From: Methanomassiliicoccales archaeon
Lineage (GTDB): Archaea > Thermoplasmatota > Thermoplasmata > Methanomassiliicoccales > UBA472
Assembly (NCBI GenBank): GCA_013415865.1
Contig: CP058896.1
Span: forward strand, 1,744,316 to 1,808,315
Direction: 5' to 3'
DNA length: 64,000 nt
The position numbers were made by a program, and so were the translations under genes. The notes under the pieces were generated by a model. It saw only the letters and a program-made list of their open reading frames with translations, ran no database searches and was not told the origin of the DNA. Positions 38,551 through 57,455 of the stretch are shown piece after piece. Numbering within the stretch: the first letter of the stretch is position 1; every line of letters starts with the position of its first letter.

Positions 38551-40125
38551 GTGGGGGGATCAACGGTGTTCGAGATCAATGTGCTGAAAGGGTCAAGCTC
38601 CATCGGTGGGAACAAGATCCTGCTCAGTTTTGAAGGGCGCAACGTCCTTTTTGACTTCGGCTATGATTATTCGGTCGACAAACAGTATTTCGATACCTTC
38701 ACGAAGGCCAGACAGAACAGGGGGATACATGACCATTTGGCCTTGGATATGTTGCCAAGGTTGTCTATCTACCGGTCGGACATAATCACGAAAGACTGCT
38801 CTGAAACATGCGCATCTTTTCCAAAGGTCGATCTGGACGCGCTCTTCGTTTCACACGCTCACATGGACCATATGGGCATGGCCGGCTACTTGGATGCGAA
38901 AGTCCCTTTCATCGGGACACCTATGACGCTGGTGCTGATGAAAGCTATCGAGGACACGTCCGAAATGATCGGGACGGAGGTCGCCTACTATGGGGAGCGT
39001 AGCCATGATGGTGATTTCTTGCTCAAAAGCAAGGGCAGTAACATTGATTACATCGGAAGGCCCCTGATATCGACCTCAAGCTCTGATGGCCTGGATGATT
39101 TTCTAGACCTTTCTCCAACGAAAAGGAAGATAAGAAGGGATAAATGTGGAAACCTGGATGATCTGGATTTCGGGGCCAAATGCTTCATGGTGGACCATTC
39201 CATCTACGGTGCGGCGGCCTTCGGTGTCGATACCGGCGATGGCTGGGTCGTATATACTGGGGACCTCCGGGACCACGGTATGAACGGAGAGAGGACCACA
39301 CAGTTCGCCAAGGAAGCTTCGAAGATACATCCTAAAGTGCTGATCATCGAGGGTACCAGGACCTCAAGGGACGAGGAACTGGAGGATGTGACGGAAAATG
39401 ACGTCGAAAGAAGATGTCTGGAGGAATGCACGGACGTCGATGGCCTGATAGTCGCCGACTTCGGGCCCAGGAACTTCGAGAGGCTTGAGACGTTCAAACG
39501 TATCGCAGAAAAGGTCGGGAGGGAGCTTGTAATAACACCAAAGGACGCATATTTCCTCGATGCTATGAGGTCGGCGGACGGGACTGAGAGGCTCGATGAC
39601 CTTCGTGTACTGGTACCTAACAAGGACCTGCAGCACAGCACCGAATTAAGGATGCTAGGAAATATCGACGCTTCGAAGATATCACCCCTTGACATCAAGA
39701 GGGATCCTGATGGGCACATCCTTTGTTTTTCATTCTATGACCTTCCACATCTTTTGGACATCAGGCCTGACAGAGGATTATATATTTATTCGGGAAGCGG
39801 GTCTTTCGATGAGGAACAGGACCACGACTTTGAAAGGTTGGATAACTGGATAAGATTATTGGGGATGCGAAAGGTCGGCTTTGAGATGGGAGAGAGGGAA
39901 GGGAGGAGAGGCAAGAGGGTCAAAGAGCCGTTATTCACACCGGGATTCCACGCATCTGGTCATGCCTCGAAGGCGGCCCTCAAGAAGATGATCGATACAA
40001 TAAGACCTGAATATCTGCTTCCTGTGCATACAGAAAATGGTTCTTTCTTCAGGGAGGAGATCTCATCCGTTCCAAGAGAGAACATCATATTACCGAAGGA
40101 TGGGCATCCGATCGTGTTCAGCTGA
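38551..40125 (+). CDS. metallo-beta-lactamase / beta-CASP ribonuclease, RNase J-like
   Basis: HAHMDH (HxHxDH), VDHS, YTGD, beta-CASP motif A IIEGT, motif B FHASGHAS, motif C LPVHTE. Confidence 0.75.
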   Translation: MGGSTVFEINVLKGSSSIGGNKILLSFEGRNVLFDFGYDYSVDKQYFDTFTKARQNRGIHDHLALDMLPRLSIYRSDIITKDCSETCASFPKVDLDALFVSHAHMDHMGMAGYLDAKVPFIGTPMTLVLMKAIEDTSEMIGTEVAYYGERSHDGDFLLKSKGSNIDYIGRPLISTSSSDGLDDFLDLSPTKRKIRRDKCGNLDDLDFGAKCFMVDHSIYGAAAFGVDTGDGWVVYTGDLRDHGMNGERTTQFAKEASKIHPKVLIIEGTRTSRDEELEDVTENDVERRCLEECTDVDGLIVADFGPRNFERLETFKRIAEKVGRELVITPKDAYFLDAMRSADGTERLDDLRVLVPNKDLQHSTELRMLGNIDASKISPLDIKRDPDGHILCFSFYDLPHLLDIRPDRGLYIYSGSGSFDEEQDHDFERLDNWIRLLGMRKVGFEMGEREGRRGKRVKEPLFTPGFHASGHASKAALKKMIDTIRPEYLLPVHTENGSFFREEISSVPRENIILPKDGHPIVFS

Positions 40126-40296
40126 GGAATGAAGGAAAGACATGAGGACACCCCCATCCCATTTATTCCGACCTTTATTCCTTTAGAACATTTCAAGGAT
40201 ATAGGTAAGGGCCACGCCTTTCCAATGTTGACCCCATTACCATGCACTATTGTAAGGTCTTCTTCCTCGTATATACGAACATGTAACGGCATCGGG

Positions 40297-40680
40297 TCAT
40301 CGGACGTTTTCCTGCGATCCTAGACCTTTCTCGATATCGACCATGACCCTTCCATTCTCCACTTTGACCTTGAATGTGGGAATGTCATGTGTCTCAAGGC
40401 TCCTGCCCCTGTCAGGCGGCCCTCTTCCATAGTTCCTGTCGGCCGGGCCTAGGAGAGCCTCCCCTGTAACGATGTCAAATTGGGCGAAATGGAGGGGGCA
40501 TGTCACTATCCTTCCATTGACGGTGCCACGGTCCAGCCTGGCCCCCTCATGTCCGCATCCCCGTCCGAACGCGTACAATTTACCAGCGTACCGAGCGACA
40601 ACAACATCATCACCCCCCACCTTGAAGGAGACCATGCCTCCCTCGGCGATCTCGTCCTCAGATCCAACGTCTACGAACAT
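40297..40680 (-). CDS. Rieske [2Fe-2S] domain protein
   Basis: CGH-x16-CPLH. ATG 40680 lies 1 nt after the upstream gene's stop. Confidence 0.8.
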   Translation of the reverse strand: MFVDVGSEDEIAEGGMVSFKVGGDDVVVARYAGKLYAFGRGCGHEGARLDRGTVNGRIVTCPLHFAQFDIVTGEALLGPADRNYGRGPPDRGRSLETHDIPTFKVKVENGRVMVDIEKGLGSQENVR

Positions 40681-40681
40681 C

Positions 40682-41014
40682 CTATCGCTCCATCTCGTTC
40701 TCTGGTATCTGTGGCAATGAGTCTGGGTCATGGACATCGATGTGCACAAAGAGACCGCACCAACATCGTTTCATCCGATCGAAATGCTTCTTATGCCAGG
40801 GTATGCAGGGGCACACCTTTTTCATGTCCTCATCCCTCACCCCTGTCAATCCCTTGCAGGGGCAGAACGGTATCCCGTGCCGCTCATAAAGGACAAGCTC
40901 CTGTTCGAGGCAGAAATCGACGAGCTCCTCATCTGGTGTGAATTTGAAACCGAGGGCGCTCACCAAGGGCCCGAACTGCTCGCGAAGGGCCTCCTTCTCT
41001 TTATCGATCTTCAT
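40682..41014 (-). CDS. ferredoxin:thioredoxin reductase catalytic-subunit-like protein
   Basis: FCPC-x14-CPC-x13-CWCGLFV compares with the FTR-B signature CPC..CPC..CHC. Start inferred at MKIDKEKE; the ORF track extends to 41209 across the upstream gene. Confidence 0.7.
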   Translation of the reverse strand: MKIDKEKEALREQFGPLVSALGFKFTPDEELVDFCLEQELVLYERHGIPFCPCKGLTGVRDEDMKKVCPCIPWHKKHFDRMKRCWCGLFVHIDVHDPDSLPQIPENEMER

Positions 41015-41024
41015 GTTCTTCAAC

Positions 41025-41276
41025 TTACTTGACACCCAGGAGGGAGCTGTACTTCCCTGGGTTGTAACCTTGTACGCAGGCATCGTCGATATACACAATG
41101 GGGAACGAAAGGTCCAACCTCTCCTTCTCCAGCCTTTCCCGGATCCTTTTTTTATCCTCATCGCTGGCCAGGTCATAATCGACGAAATCGAACGGTATGT
41201 TACGCTCATTGAACCATTGCTTTGTCTTCCTGCACCATGGACAAGTACTAAGGGTGTACATCAATACCTTTTTCAA
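41025..41276 (-). CDS. glutaredoxin-like small thioredoxin-fold protein
   Basis: 83 aa with MYTLSTCPWCRKTKQWF (CxxC), and FPIVYI before the C-terminal helix. Confidence 0.85.
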   Translation of the reverse strand: MKKVLMYTLSTCPWCRKTKQWFNERNIPFDFVDYDLASDEDKKRIRERLEKERLDLSFPIVYIDDACVQGYNPGKYSSLLGVK

Positions 41277-41280
41277 ATCA

Positions 41281-41625
41281 TCAATCCTCCAATCTGACCG
41301 ATATCTTCCCTTCAGAGACCCTCGTGGGATATCTTTTCAAGGCGACCTCGGGGGCCATCATCAGACCTCCCGTCCTTATGTCGAAGCTCCAGTCATGGCA
41401 GGGGCATGTGATGATATGCCCGCTCAAGGTCCCAGATGACAAAGGACAGCCCAGATGCGGACATCTGTTCGACAGGGCGAACACATCCCCCTGATGCTCC
41501 ACAAGCAGGACTGAAACTCCCTTGGGGTGGACGACCTTCATGCGCTTTTTCTCGAGGTCCGTAATCACGGCCACTTCCACCCATCCACCGGTCCCTGCCA
41601 TCCTTTTTTGCTCCGTGACCATCAC
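41281..41625 (-). CDS. Rieske [2Fe-2S] ferredoxin-like protein
   Basis: CPH-x16-CPCH; 114 aa. Confidence 0.85.
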   Translation of the reverse strand: MMVTEQKRMAGTGGWVEVAVITDLEKKRMKVVHPKGVSVLLVEHQGDVFALSNRCPHLGCPLSSGTLSGHIITCPCHDWSFDIRTGGLMMAPEVALKRYPTRVSEGKISVRLED

Positions 41626-41664: not shown

Positions 41665-42303
41665 TCAGAGCAATATCTCTATGGAAGATATCAGGAAATA
41701 AAGGCCGAAAATGACCATTATACCGCCGGAGGCCACTATGAGAAGGTGATGCCATTTGACGTTCCAGAGACCCTTGGAACGGTTCACGGTCCTGCTCACG
41801 AGGATGTTCCAACCTGCGTCACATGAGATATGTACGATCACGAAAGCTGGCAGCATCCATATGCCGAACTCAGTGGCCGTGGCCACAAGTGCGGCTCCGA
41901 CGGTGGCCCACCAAAGGAGCCAATAAGGGTTGGACGCGGTCGAAAGGACACCATCAAAAGAGGCCCTCCTCTTTAACGCGCCTTCCTGCGTGATTATGAC
42001 ATCCCTCGCCCTCAGCATGCCGACCCCCATCCACAGTATGATCGCCCCTCCCACTATCCCGATCGTCGCTATTATAGAATCGTCGGATAGGATGGTCGCG
42101 AAGCCAAGGAAGATAAGGGCTATCAAGGGAACCTCTATCAGGGCATGTCCTAATGTAATGCCCAGACCTGCCCTGCCATCGCGATAACCCTGGGCAACAG
42201 TGGCAGCAAAGGTCGGACCTGGCATCATCACACCGGATAGCGAGATGAAGGCCACGGTGGCAAGGAAGAATATCGGCCCCTCCAGCGACATCAAAGCTAC
42301 CAA
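41665..42303 (-). CDS. LysE/RhtB family exporter
   Basis: About 210 aa with 6 TM helices and MPGPTFAATV near the N-terminus. Confidence 0.7.
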   Translation of the reverse strand: MVALMSLEGPIFFLATVAFISLSGVMMPGPTFAATVAQGYRDGRAGLGITLGHALIEVPLIALIFLGFATILSDDSIIATIGIVGGAIILWMGVGMLRARDVIITQEGALKRRASFDGVLSTASNPYWLLWWATVGAALVATATEFGIWMLPAFVIVHISCDAGWNILVSRTVNRSKGLWNVKWHHLLIVASGGIMVIFGLYFLISSIEILL

Positions 42304-57368: not shown

Positions 57369-57455
57369 GCCGAGGTAACCAAGCCCGGTATGGTGGTAGT
57401 CTCGAAAACTACTGGGAACCCTCCCTCGGGAGTTCAAATCTCCCCCTCGGCGCCA
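57369..57455 (+). tRNA. tRNA-Ser (CGA)
   Basis: Hand-folded. Acceptor GCCGAGG/CCTCGGC; D arm ACCA-AGCCCGGTA-TGGT; anticodon stem GTAGT/ACTAC with loop CT-CGA-AA; long variable arm GGGA-ACCC-TCCC; T arm GGGAG-TTCAAAT-CTCCC; discriminator G; encoded CCA. Confidence 0.92.

What the first reader, a model, noticed from the sequence alone, without database searches (positions are those of the whole stretch)
40297..41625. Four-gene Rieske / glutaredoxin-like / FTR-like / Rieske operon: a candidate novel disulfide-reductase system
Four small genes on the minus strand are separated by only 4, 10 and 1 nt. They are Rieske (CPH-x16-CPCH), a CPWC thioredoxin-fold protein, an FTR catalytic-subunit-like protein, and a second Rieske (CGH-x16-CPLH). 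Classical FTR takes electrons from plant-type or 4Fe-4S ferredoxins and carries CPC..CPC..CHC. Here the spacing differs (x14 and x13), and the catalytic His of CHC is replaced by Trp (CWC). The only candidate redox partners encoded alongside are two Rieske proteins, whose clusters are usually of much higher potential. This suggests either an unusual electron input or a system running in the thiol-oxidising direction. I am not aware of a described Rieske-FTR-Grx module.
Basis: partly seen in the sequence, partly recalled or inferred. Interest (0 to 1): 0.7.

Follow-up and report, generated by a model that had tools for sequence, protein, structure and literature searches.

The report
Rieske-linked iron-sulfur disulfide reductase operon
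Four tightly packed genes encode a small iron-sulfur disulfide reductase related to ferredoxin:thioredoxin reductase, its glutaredoxin-like partner and two Rieske iron-sulfur proteins; the same cassette recurs in hundreds of bacteria and archaea and I found no description of it, so it may be an unrecognised way of keeping protein thiols reduced.

Summary
Four minus-strand genes, separated by 4, 10 and 1 nt, encode RieskeA, a CPWC glutaredoxin-like protein, an FTR-catalytic-subunit-like protein (CPC-x14-CPC-x13-CWC) and RieskeB. The window comes from a Methanomassiliicoccales MAG.

This is not a one-off. The same gene order occurs in 68 of the 80 best genome loci, spanning at least 14 phylum-level groups of bacteria and archaea. 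It also occurs in 53 of 53 metagenome loci found through RieskeB alone. Genes there are separated by a median of 1-2 nt, and all cluster and active-site residues are invariant.

Natural fusions tie the parts together: Grx::FTR(CWC), FTR(CWC)::Rieske and rubredoxin::FTR(CWC).

The nearest solved relatives are the archaeal and bacterial ferredoxin:disulfide reductases (4TPU, 7PWE; both CYC), not plant FTR.

Best reading: this is a self-contained FDR-type disulfide reductase. Low-potential-type Rieske ferredoxins replace ferredoxin or rubredoxin as one-electron donors, and the Grx-like protein is the reduced product. Neighbouring flavoprotein reductases, a selenocysteine peroxiredoxin and a superoxide dismutase in other lineages point to oxidative-stress defence.

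The direction of electron flow and the electron source remain inferred. I found no published description or curated family model. I rate it a new variant of a known kind.

The parts
41281..41625 (-). RieskeA. A soluble Rieske-type [2Fe-2S] ferredoxin of 114 aa. Ligands are C55, H57, C74 and H77. It also carries an invariant extra Cys pair, C60/C76, at the positions of the bc1/b6f-type disulfide. Proposed one-electron partner of the FTR-like enzyme.
   Evidence: Pfam Rieske 1.3e-19. Ligands and the extra Cys pair are kept in 85-87 of 87 orthologues. The nearest solved relatives are the dioxygenase ferredoxins 2qpz and 5bok, which lack the extra Cys pair. The start codon is ambiguous (GTG 41625, ATG 41622 or ATG 41601).
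41025..41276 (-). Glutaredoxin-like thioredoxin-fold protein of 83 aa with active site C12-P-W-C15. Proposed dithiol/disulfide substrate and product of the FTR-like enzyme, and carrier of reducing power to target proteins.
   Evidence: Pfam Glutaredoxin 2.6e-11. CPWC is kept in 77 of 79 orthologues; cis-Pro59 and G70 in 79 of 79. The nearest solved relatives are M. acetivorans methanoredoxin 5cax (1.9e-11), the A. fulgidus and M. mazei Grx-like proteins, and the Grx domain of the 7pwe Grx/FDR fusion. It lies below every NCBIfam cut-off.
40682..41014 (-). FTR-catalytic-subunit-like (FDR-type) protein of 110 aa with C51PC53-x14-C68PC70-x13-C84WC86. It is predicted to carry a [4Fe-4S] cluster next to a redox-active disulfide (C53/C86, by homology). 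This is the catalytic core of the module.
   Evidence: Pfam FeThRed_B 6.2e-22. All 120 listed homologues have the x14/x13 spacing and all have CWC. The six Cys, W85, H77 and H91 are invariant in 81 of 81 sequences; H74 in 79 of 81. W85 aligns with the Tyr of FDR and the His of FTR. The AF2 model has pLDDT 80.6, and its best fold matches are 7pwe, 4tpu and then 1dj7.
40297..40680 (-). RieskeB. A second soluble Rieske-type [2Fe-2S] ferredoxin of 127 aa. Ligands are C42, H44, C61 and H64, and there is no extra Cys pair. It has a lineage-variable insertion of about 15-40 aa after the cluster loops. Proposed second one-electron partner.
   Evidence: Pfam Rieske 2.1e-17. Ligands and Q67 are invariant in 73 of 73 sequences. 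The nearest solved relative is 5bok at 1e-17. Every relative found with a RieskeB-only pattern that has upstream DNA lies downstream of a CWC FTR: 71 of 71, with the full module in 53 of 53. Profile scores separate RieskeB cleanly from RieskeA.
41665..42303 (-). LysE/RhtB-family membrane transporter of 212 aa, 39 nt upstream on the same strand. It is a lineage-specific neighbour and may be co-transcribed. It is not part of the universal module.
   Evidence: Pfam LysE 1e-26. It sits directly upstream of RieskeA in all 8 Methanomassiliicoccales loci (L001-L007, L023) and in no other lineage.

Best explanation
The four genes form one operon for a self-contained cytoplasmic thiol-disulfide oxidoreductase system of the ferredoxin:disulfide reductase (FDR/FTR) type.

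The 110-aa CWC protein is the catalyst. By homology, four Cys (C51, C68, C70, C84) hold a [4Fe-4S] cluster beside a redox-active disulfide (C53-C86). This lets the enzyme convert two successive one-electron inputs into one two-electron disulfide reduction.

The two small Rieske [2Fe-2S] proteins are its dedicated one-electron carriers. They take the role played by plant-type ferredoxin for FTR and by the fused rubredoxin domain in Methanosarcina FDR. The CPWC glutaredoxin-like protein is the disulfide substrate. Once reduced, it passes reducing equivalents to target proteins such as peroxiredoxins.

The window does not encode whatever reduces the Rieske proteins. In other lineages, adjacent nitroreductase-family or NADPH:FMN-reductase flavoproteins are the candidates. 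The likely physiological role is thiol maintenance or oxidative-stress defence in mostly anaerobic or microaerophilic organisms.

Shown here: gene identities, cofactor-ligand conservation, obligate synteny, translational-coupling-type spacing, and domain fusions. Inferred: cofactor content, electron path, direction of flow, targets and electron source.
For: Identity of the parts.

The module is a unit:
- 380 species genomes carry a relative of the FTR(CWC) gene; neighbours were examined only in the best 80.
- 68 of those best 80 loci keep all four genes in order, across Actinomycetota, Acidobacteriota, Nitrospirota, Omnitrophota, Desulfobacterota, Myxococcota, Ignavibacteriota, Bacteroidota, Spirochaetota, Fibrobacterota, Gallionellaceae, Methanomassiliicoccales, Bathyarchaeia and Methanoperedens.
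- The flanking genes differ from lineage to lineage.
- The reciprocal test through RieskeB gave FTR in 71 of 71 loci and the full module in 53 of 53.
- Median gaps are 1-2 nt, with frequent 4-nt overlaps.

Constraint on the parts: all cluster ligands and active-site Cys are invariant.

Physical and functional coupling, from fusions:
- P0121 is a Grx::FTR(CWC) fusion flanked by RieskeA and RieskeB.
- P0127 and P0131 are FTR(CWC)::Rieske fusions, each preceded by a Grx gene.
- In other CWC-x13 relatives the partner is a rubredoxin-like domain or gene (P0189, P0195, P0199, P0269; L178). Rieske and rubredoxin therefore appear interchangeable.

Relationship to FDR: sequence and fold place the protein nearest 4tpu and 7pwe, which is a Grx/FDR fusion. 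The Grx-like protein is nearest methanoredoxin 5cax. I recall, from Prakash et al. 2018 JBC (not held here), that FDR reduces methanoredoxin.

Reducing direction and stress role:
- A selenocysteine peroxiredoxin lies immediately upstream of the module in L093-L096.
- L178 has the order FMN_red, rubredoxin, FTR(CWC), Fe-SOD.
- FMN_red lies next to the module in L066 and L067.
- A nitroreductase-family gene abuts the module in about 28 Actinomycetota loci, and is translationally coupled after FTR in Methanosarcinales.
- Glutamate-cysteine ligase lies downstream in L024 and L042.

Low-potential character of the Rieske proteins: the nearest solved relatives are dioxygenase ferredoxins.
Against: There is no biochemical evidence for any step.

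Even low-potential Rieske centres (about -150 mV, textbook value) are less reducing than ferredoxin. They are no more reducing than typical Trx/Grx disulfides, so reduction would run near equilibrium or need pulling by an exergonic sink.

The window encodes no reductase for the Rieske proteins: no nitroreductase, FMN_red or Prx homologue occurs in the 64 kb. The flanking flavoproteins elsewhere are lineage-specific and could simply be co-regulated stress genes.

Trp at the position of the catalytic His (FTR) or Tyr (FDR) cannot act as an acid/base, so the chemistry may differ.

The need for two different Rieske proteins and RieskeA's invariant extra Cys pair are not explained.

The key FDR and FTR-evolution papers (Balsera 2013, Kumar 2015, Prakash 2018, Wei 2015) could not be read here. 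A prior mention of the Rieske linkage therefore cannot be excluded.
Confidence: 0.6

Rival explanations
1. The components and wiring are the same, but the system runs the other way, as a thiol oxidase or disulfide-forming system. The dithiol form of the CPWC protein is oxidised at the CWC enzyme. The two electrons leave one at a time through the two Rieske proteins to an acceptor such as a flavoprotein, quinone, O2 or a nitro compound.
For: This direction is thermodynamically downhill if the Rieske centres sit at or above about -150 mV (textbook values). The nearest relatives are dioxygenase ferredoxins. Two one-electron carriers fit the need to dispose of two electrons. The adjacent nitroreductase, FMN_red, OYE and quinone-oxidoreductase-like genes could be electron sinks rather than sources. 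FTR-type chemistry is reversible in principle.
Against: Adjacency to a peroxiredoxin, which needs a reductant, to SOD and to glutamate-cysteine ligase fits a reducing, protective role better. The characterised relatives FTR and FDR all work reductively (PMC6262447, PMC7278568). Most hosts are anaerobes with reducing cytoplasm, where making disulfides has no obvious use.
Confidence: 0.15
2. RieskeA is not only a carrier but a client. Its invariant Cys60/Cys76 pair beside the [2Fe-2S] cluster forms a disulfide that the Grx-like/CWC pair reduces or forms. This would switch the potential or stability of the Rieske centre, acting as a redox switch or sensor, or serve in maturation or repair of the Rieske proteins.
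For: The extra Cys pair is kept in 85-86 of 87 RieskeA sequences, although the nearest solved relatives lack it. All Rieske paralogues in the Methanosarcinales versions keep it. A disulfide reductase is encoded in the same operon.
Against: The FTR(CWC)::Rieske fusions and RieskeB lack the pair yet are just as tightly linked. In other CWC relatives rubredoxin takes the Rieske position, which argues for a plain electron-carrier role. The same Cys pair is a purely structural disulfide in bc1/b6f Rieske proteins (textbook knowledge).
Confidence: 0.1
3. The two non-equivalent Rieske proteins have different potentials, and the CWC centre splits (or merges) the two electrons of a dithiol/disulfide couple between them. 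This would be a thiol-based electron bifurcation or confurcation.
For: Two distinct, separately conserved Rieske families flank the enzyme. FTR-type catalysis proceeds through a stabilised one-electron intermediate (textbook knowledge). This is, in principle, what a bifurcating site needs.
Against: There is no direct evidence. Methanosarcinales versions have only A-type Rieske proteins, and the fusions have a single Rieske. Two different carriers are therefore not essential. Both Rieske proteins look like the low-potential type.
Confidence: 0.05
4. The adjacency is incidental: four unrelated small redox genes happen to lie together in this genome.
For: None, beyond the fact that all four belong to large, common families.
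Against: Conserved order across at least 14 phylum-level groups, reciprocal exclusivity for RieskeB, overlapping genes and domain fusions.
Confidence: 0.01

Closest known systems
Ferredoxin:disulfide reductase (FDR) of Methanosarcina acetivorans (PDB 4TPU)
   Same: It has an FTRc-like fold and six Cys arranged as CPC-x14-CPC-x(12/13)-CxC, with a non-His residue in the last motif. It is the best sequence match in the PDB (E 1.9e-6) and among the three best fold matches. It uses an auxiliary one-electron iron centre. It reduces small Trx/Grx-like proteins (PMC6262447), including methanoredoxin as I recall it; methanoredoxin is the nearest solved relative of the window's Grx-like protein.
   Different: FDR has CYC with x12 and a fused C-terminal rubredoxin domain. 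The window protein has CWC with x13, no fused domain, three extra invariant His residues, and two separately encoded Rieske proteins in place of rubredoxin. Sequence identity is only about 24%.
Glutaredoxin/ferredoxin-disulfide-reductase fusion of Desulfotalea psychrophila (PDB 7PWE)
   Same: It pairs a Grx-like domain with an FDR-type domain. Both the window's Grx-like and FTR-like proteins match it, and it is the best fold match. The CWC clade has its own Grx::FTR fusion, P0121.
   Different: 7PWE has CYC with x12 and is a single chain. I could not establish any Rieske partner for it. The AF2 model of the CWC fusion matches 7pwe domain by domain but not in overall arrangement (TM 0.42, rmsd 16.6).
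[quoted passage not shown]
   Same: Same Pfam family (FeThRed_B) and the same six-Cys logic of a [4Fe-4S] cluster plus an active-site disulfide.
   Different: FTRc has CPC-x16-CPC-x8-CHC with a catalytic His. It needs the variable subunit FTRv, takes electrons from [2Fe-2S] plant-type ferredoxin and reduces classical thioredoxins. Its sequence match is much weaker (E about 0.01).
Rieske-type ferredoxins of aromatic-ring dioxygenase systems (e.g. naphthalene dioxygenase ferredoxin 2QPZ, 5BOK, BphF 1FQT)
   Same: They are the closest solved relatives of both RieskeA and RieskeB. They are soluble proteins of about 105-125 aa with CxH...CxxH ligands and without the Ser/Tyr that raise the potential in bc1-type proteins.
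   Different: No oxygenase or FNR/GR-type reductase partner is present here; the partner is an FTR-like enzyme. RieskeA adds the bc1-type Cys pair. RieskeB carries an insertion.
NAD(P)H : flavoprotein : rubredoxin electron chains of anaerobes (oxidative-stress defence)
   Same: The logic is a small flavoprotein reductase feeding a small one-iron-centre carrier that feeds a detoxifying or repair enzyme. CWC relatives occur in the arrangement FMN_red, rubredoxin, FTR(CWC), SOD.
   Different: Here the carrier is a Rieske protein and the terminal enzyme is a disulfide reductase. The flavoprotein link is only contextual.

Membership tests
Pfam FeThRed_B (PF02943) superfamily | Profile match above the gathering threshold | tested here: met
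   78.1 bits against a cut-off of 22, E 6.2e-22, covering residues 9-108.
Pfam FeThRed_B (PF02943) superfamily | Six conserved Cys in three CxC motifs (four cluster ligands plus the redox-active pair) | tested here: met
   C51, C53, C68, C70, C84 and C86 are invariant in 81 of 81 orthologues and align with the Cys of 4tpu, 7pwe and 2pvd.
Classical FTR catalytic subunit (plant/cyanobacterial) | CHC motif with the catalytic His | tested here: not met
   The motif is CWC. W85 aligns with the His of 2pvd and is invariant.
Classical FTR catalytic subunit (plant/cyanobacterial) | Spacing CPC-x16-CPC-x8-CHC | tested here: not met
   The spacing is x14 and x13 in all 120 listed homologues.
Classical FTR catalytic subunit (plant/cyanobacterial) | Heterodimer with the variable subunit FTRv; electron donor is plant-type ferredoxin | not testable with these tools
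   No FTRv-like gene lies in the module or in the conserved flanks. The rest of the genome was not available.
FDR (M. acetivorans type) | FTRc-like domain with x14 spacing and a non-His residue in the third motif | tested here: met
   x14 is shared. The residue is W here against Y in 4tpu and 7pwe. It is the best sequence match and among the three best fold matches in the PDB.
FDR (M. acetivorans type) | Fused C-terminal rubredoxin domain | tested here: not met
   The protein is 110 aa with no further CxxC pairs. Only FeThRed_B is found by Pfam. More distant CWC-x13 relatives do carry an N-terminal rubredoxin-like domain.
FDR (M. acetivorans type) | Ferredoxin/flavodoxin-dependent reduction of Trx/Grx-like proteins | not testable with these tools
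   This needs biochemistry. Only the adjacent or fused Grx-like partner is shown.
Rieske [2Fe-2S] proteins | CxH ... CxxH ligand boxes in a Rieske fold | tested here: met
   Both proteins pass Pfam Rieske. The ligands are invariant or nearly so: C55 and H57 87/87, C74 86/87, H77 85/87 in RieskeA; all four 73/73 in RieskeB.
High-potential (bc1/b6f-type) Rieske proteins | Cluster-flanking disulfide Cys pair plus the Ser and Tyr hydrogen-bond donors after the second His (CPCHGSxY) | tested here: not met
   RieskeA has the Cys pair, but the following residues are D-W-S-F (D-W-R-F in the consensus). RieskeB has neither the pair nor the donors (CPLHFAQF). The role of Ser and Tyr is textbook knowledge.
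Class I (glutathione-dependent) glutaredoxins | CPYC-type active site with glutathione-binding motifs (TVP, GGxdD); equivalog-level family match | tested here: not met
   The active site is CPWC, the cis-Pro context is F/Y-P, and G-Y-N replaces GG-DD. All NCBIfam Grx models score below their cut-offs; the best is the YruB family at 49 bits against 88.55. The nearest structures are archaeal Grx-like proteins and methanoredoxin.

The most novel reading that the evidence does not exclude
The cassette may define a new class of thioredoxin/glutaredoxin-reductase system. In it, NAD(P)H-linked small flavoproteins (nitroreductase-like or FMN_red) feed Rieske [2Fe-2S] ferredoxins, which drive an FTR-type [4Fe-4S]/disulfide enzyme. 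The two non-equivalent Rieske proteins, one carrying a possibly redox-active cluster-flanking disulfide, would give the enzyme a property not seen in FTR or FDR. That property could be splitting the two electrons of a dithiol between carriers of different potential (thiol-based bifurcation or confurcation), or gating electron flow through a disulfide switch on RieskeA.
Probability: 0.1. Interest if true: 0.85.

Novelty: new variant of a known kind. Interest (0 to 1): 0.66.

Why it matters
Disulfide reductase systems are few in kind: NADPH-dependent flavoenzymes, the F420- and ferredoxin-dependent flavoenzymes, and the Fe-S enzymes FTR and FDR. They set the thiol redox state of the cell.

A widely distributed, horizontally mobile cassette that couples an FTR-type enzyme to dedicated Rieske ferredoxins would add a new electron-input route. 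Relatives of its FTR gene occur in at least 380 species-level genomes, from soil Actinomycetota to methanogens and anaerobic methane oxidisers.

It would also give Rieske proteins a role outside respiration and oxygenases, including in strict anaerobes where they are otherwise rare.

The natural CxC variants (H, Y, W, F) offer a test of what the 'catalytic' residue in FTR chemistry really does. If the link to peroxiredoxin and SOD holds, the cassette is an unrecognised oxidative-stress defence of anaerobes important in wetland and sediment carbon cycling.

Tried and rejected
1. Predicting the four-protein complex with AlphaFold, using linker-joined paired orthologues. No interface model exists.

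2. Literature. None found a paper linking Rieske proteins to FTR/FDR-type enzymes. The key papers are not held: Balsera 2013 Planta, Prakash 2018 JBC, Wei 2015 Biochemistry, Susanti 2014 PNAS and PMC5903248; Kumar 2015 Biochemistry was not looked up. What I say about them is from memory or from citing reviews.

3. A protein-database search with RieskeA, to look for fusions to a reductase. Only 9 hits came back and none was a fusion.

4. The ORF at 39960-40292(-), 4 nt downstream of RieskeB, as a possible fifth gene. Rejected: its only conservation is the antisense shadow of the convergent beta-CASP/RNase J-like gene.

5. A search of the 64-kb window for nitroreductase, FMN_red or peroxiredoxin homologues. 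None was found.

6. A universally conserved fifth gene around the module. None exists; the flanks vary by lineage.

7. NCBIfam. No curated model reaches its cut-off for any of the four proteins or for the fusions.

8. tRNA and Rfam scans of the window. Nothing relevant turned up.

9. The bacterial promoter/terminator scan was not run, because the host is an archaeon and the tool does not cover archaeal promoters.
Full report
**What is in the window**

| Gene | Coordinates | Length | Key motif |
|---|---|---|---|
| RieskeA | 41281-41625 | 114 aa | CPH-x16-CPCH |
| Grx-like | 41025-41276 | 83 aa (TTG start) | CPWC |
| FTR-like | 40682-41014 | 110 aa | CPC-x14-CPC-x13-CWC |
| RieskeB | 40297-40680 | 127 aa | CGH-x16-CPLH |

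- The gaps between the genes are 4, 10 and 1 nt.
- Pfam assigns them to Rieske (1.3e-19), Glutaredoxin (2.6e-11), FeThRed_B (6.2e-22; 78 bits against a cut-off of 22) and Rieske (2.1e-17).
- No NCBIfam model reaches its cut-off for any of them.
- The FTR-like protein is identical to one annotated in a Methanomassiliicoccales archaeon MAG on a 1.8-Mb contig. That sets the host.
- A LysE-family transporter gene lies 39 nt upstream on the same strand.
- A convergent beta-CASP/RNase J-like gene lies downstream.
- The small ORF at 39960-40292 is only the antisense shadow of that gene.

**The four genes are a unit**

A scan of one genome per species (185,579 species) with patterns from the FTR-like protein found 380 genomes encoding a relative. 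The best 80 loci showed the following.

- 68 carry RieskeA-Grx-FTR-RieskeB in this order within about 1.3 kb.
- They span Actinomycetota (mostly Thermoleophilia), Acidobacteriota, Nitrospirota, Omnitrophota, Thermodesulfobacteriota, Myxococcota, Ignavibacteriota, Bacteroidota, Spirochaetota, Fibrobacterota, Gallionellaceae ('Ca. Ferrigenium straubiae' KS), Methanomassiliicoccales, Bathyarchaeia and Methanoperedens.
- The exceptions are truncated contigs, one locus with an insertion, one Anaerolineae locus lacking RieskeB, and the Methanosarcinales. The Methanosarcinales have one to three A-type Rieske genes, then Grx, FTR and a nitroreductase-family gene, with no RieskeB.
- Genes outside the four differ from lineage to lineage. 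The cassette is therefore self-contained and evidently mobile.

The reciprocal test used a metagenome scan with a RieskeB-only peptide pattern, which found 572 relatives. Among the best 80:

- all 71 with at least 400 nt of upstream DNA have the FTR gene;
- all 53 with at least 1150 nt have the full four-gene order;
- all 72 complete FTR genes are CWC.

Across about 140 loci the median distances between successive genes are 1-2 nt and about 40-50% of junctions overlap, most often by 4 nt (starts assigned approximately). This is the signature of a co-translated operon.

**Sequence constraint**

Across the syntenic orthologues:

- **RieskeA:** the ligands C55, H57, C74 and H77, and an extra pair C60/C76, are present in 85-87 of 87 sequences.
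- **RieskeB:** the ligands C42, H44, C61 and H64, and Q67, are present in 73 of 73. It has no extra Cys and a variable insertion after the cluster loops.
- **Grx-like protein:** CPWC is present in 77 of 79; the cis-Pro and G70 in 79 of 79.
- **FTR-like protein:** the six Cys, W85, H77 and H91 are present in 81 of 81, and H74 in 79 of 81.
- **The two Rieske families are distinct.** Each profile scores its own family about 70-110 bits higher.

**Fusions tie the parts together**

I searched 1.84 billion cluster representatives with the FTR-like protein and inspected the longer hits.

- **P0121** is a Grx::FTR(CWC) fusion. In its contigs it is flanked by RieskeA upstream and RieskeB downstream. 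It is preceded by a peroxiredoxin whose peroxidatic Cys codon is an in-frame TGA (FYPADFTFV-U-ATE), that is, a selenocysteine Prx.
- **P0127 and P0131** are FTR(CWC)::Rieske fusions with a short linker. Each is preceded by a Grx gene, overlapping by 4 nt in one case.
- **P0189, P0195, P0199 and P0269** are more distant CWC-x13 proteins that carry an N-terminal rubredoxin-like domain.
- **P0163** sits in the arrangement FMN_red, rubredoxin-like (47 aa), FTR(CWC), Fe-SOD.

Within this clade the FTR-like domain is therefore joined either to a Grx, to a Rieske domain or to a rubredoxin. This is what one expects if Grx is the thiol partner and Rieske and rubredoxin are interchangeable one-electron partners.

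**Relation to known enzymes**

- **Sequence.** The nearest solved structures are M. acetivorans FDR (4tpu, E 1.9e-6) and 7pwe (8.7e-6). Plant and cyanobacterial FTRc are much weaker, at about 0.01.
- **Alignment of W85.** W85 pairs with the Tyr of FDR/7pwe and the His of FTR.
- **Fold, window protein.** An AF2 model (pLDDT 80.6, pTM 0.72) matches 7pwe, 4tpu and then 1dj7. 7pwe is the 'glutaredoxin/ferredoxin disulfide reductase fusion protein from Desulfotalea psychrophila'.
- **Fold, CWC fusion.** A model of P0121 is confident (pLDDT 92.4, pTM 0.88). It matches 7pwe over both domains but with a different overall arrangement (TM 0.42).
- **Grx-like protein.** It is nearest M. acetivorans methanoredoxin (5cax) and archaeal Grx-like proteins.
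- **Rieske proteins.** Both are nearest dioxygenase-type low-potential Rieske ferredoxins (2qpz, 5bok).
- **CxC variation.** Among the 150 nearest representatives the middle residue of the third motif is Y 31, W 26, H 20, F 14 and L 6, and x14 is the norm. W goes with x13 (22 of 26) and the others with x12.

CWC with x13 marks a distinct clade.

Reviews held here state that FDRs are Fe-S enzymes related to FTRc that reduce certain Trx homologues in Methanosarcina (PMC6262447; PMC7278568). Three further points are from my memory of Prakash et al. 2018 and could not be checked:

- the rubredoxin centre of FDR relays electrons to the active-site cluster;
- a Tyr replaces the essential His;
- FDR reduces methanoredoxin.

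**How it most likely works**

The CWC protein holds a [4Fe-4S] cluster next to a C53-C86 disulfide. It receives two electrons one at a time from reduced Rieske ferredoxins and reduces the disulfide of the CPWC protein, which then reduces target proteins.

Both Rieske proteins lack the Ser and Tyr after the second His that raise the potential of bc1-type proteins, and both resemble ferredoxins of about -150 mV (textbook values). A CPxC Grx-type disulfide is expected to lie near -200 mV. The step would therefore run near equilibrium rather than being impossible, and could be pulled by an exergonic sink such as peroxide reduction. This is inference; no potentials were measured.

The context supports a reducing, protective role.

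- A Sec-peroxiredoxin lies directly upstream.
- SOD and FMN_red lie next to a rubredoxin-type relative.
- FMN_red lies directly downstream in a Nitrospirota and a Gallionellaceae locus.
- A nitroreductase-family flavoprotein lies adjacent in about 28 Actinomycetota loci and is translationally coupled in Methanosarcinales. The two versions are 32% identical.
- Glutamate-cysteine ligase lies downstream in two Thermodesulfobacteriota loci.

These flavoproteins are the candidate NAD(P)H-linked reductases of the Rieske proteins. The window itself encodes none.

**What remains open**

- The direction of electron flow. A thiol-oxidising mode is thermodynamically easier and is not excluded.
- The electron source.
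- Why two different Rieske proteins are kept, when Methanosarcinales and the fusions manage with one type.
- What RieskeA's invariant extra Cys pair does. It could be a structural disulfide as in bc1 proteins, or a redox-active one served by the operon's own reductase.
- What replaces acid/base catalysis when the His or Tyr is Trp. The clade-specific invariant H74, H77 and H91 are candidates.
- Whether the proteins form a complex.

**Novelty and verdict**

I found no description of a Rieske-linked FTR/FDR system in any search I could run, and no curated family model. Several key subscription papers could not be read, so a passing earlier mention cannot be excluded.

The enzyme chemistry belongs to a known kind, the FTR/FDR Fe-S disulfide reductases with an adjacent or fused Trx-fold partner. 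The obligate pairing with two Rieske ferredoxins in a widely distributed four-gene cassette is a new variant of it.

Noticed in passing
window 41665-42303 (-): A LysE/RhtB-family transporter gene lies 39 nt upstream of RieskeA on the same strand. It is directly upstream of the module in all 8 Methanomassiliicoccales loci and in no other lineage. Some members of this family export cysteine or related amino acids (from memory), so a link to thiol export is conceivable but untested.
   Followed up: partly
L093 5056-5667 (also L094-L096): A peroxiredoxin gene immediately upstream of a RieskeA / Grx::FTR(CWC) / RieskeB cassette has an in-frame TGA at the peroxidatic Cys position (FYPADFTFV*ATE). 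It is probably a selenocysteine peroxiredoxin that gene callers split into 57- and 142-aa pieces.
   Followed up: partly
L057 6348-6923, L080 1693-2268, L079 6354-6932, L052 6321-6923; about 28 Actinomycetota loci (e.g. L062 1322-1918): A nitroreductase-family (PF00881) gene is attached to the module in two very distant lineages. In Methanosarcinales it overlaps or abuts the end of the FTR gene, in the place of RieskeB. In Actinomycetota it lies just upstream of RieskeA.
   Followed up: partly
L018, L040, L045, L053, L059, L066, L067, L074 (e.g. L045 6758-7357): A protein of about 200 aa with a SnoaL-like domain and a signal peptide lies next to the module in 8 loci from 5 phylum-level groups. 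Its function and its relation to the module are unknown.
   Followed up: partly
L178 318-1595; L177 378-1142: More distant CWC-x13 FTR-like proteins pair with rubredoxin instead of Rieske. One arrangement is FMN_red, a 47-aa rubredoxin-like gene, FTR(CWC) and Fe-SOD. Another is a Grx gene followed by a rubredoxin::FTR(CWC) fusion.
   Followed up: partly
window 41398-41448 (RieskeA C60 and C76 codons): RieskeA keeps an invariant extra Cys pair at the positions of the bc1/b6f Rieske disulfide. Its nearest solved relatives and the fused Rieske domains lack both Cys. The reason is unexplained.
   Followed up: partly
L024 6870-8009, L042 1662-2801; L018 6845-7693, L075 6703-7455: A glutamate-cysteine ligase family 2 gene lies directly downstream of the module in two Thermodesulfobacteriota loci. 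A VIT1-family iron transporter gene lies directly downstream in a Bacteroidota and an Ignavibacteriota locus.
   Followed up: no
L079 5065-5739 (Methanolobus halotolerans SY-01): In this cultured methanogen the Rieske genes upstream of Grx-FTR-nitroreductase look partly degraded. One ORF has lost the ligand boxes, and the other seems N-terminally shortened.
   Followed up: no
window 39960-40292 (-): A 110-aa ORF starts 4 nt after RieskeB and looks like a fifth operon gene. It is only conserved where it is antisense to the convergent beta-CASP/RNase J-like gene (38551-40125, +), so it is probably not a gene.
   Followed up: yes
window 57369-57455 (+): The only RNA gene detected in the 64 kb is a tRNA-Ser (CGA).
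   Followed up: yes
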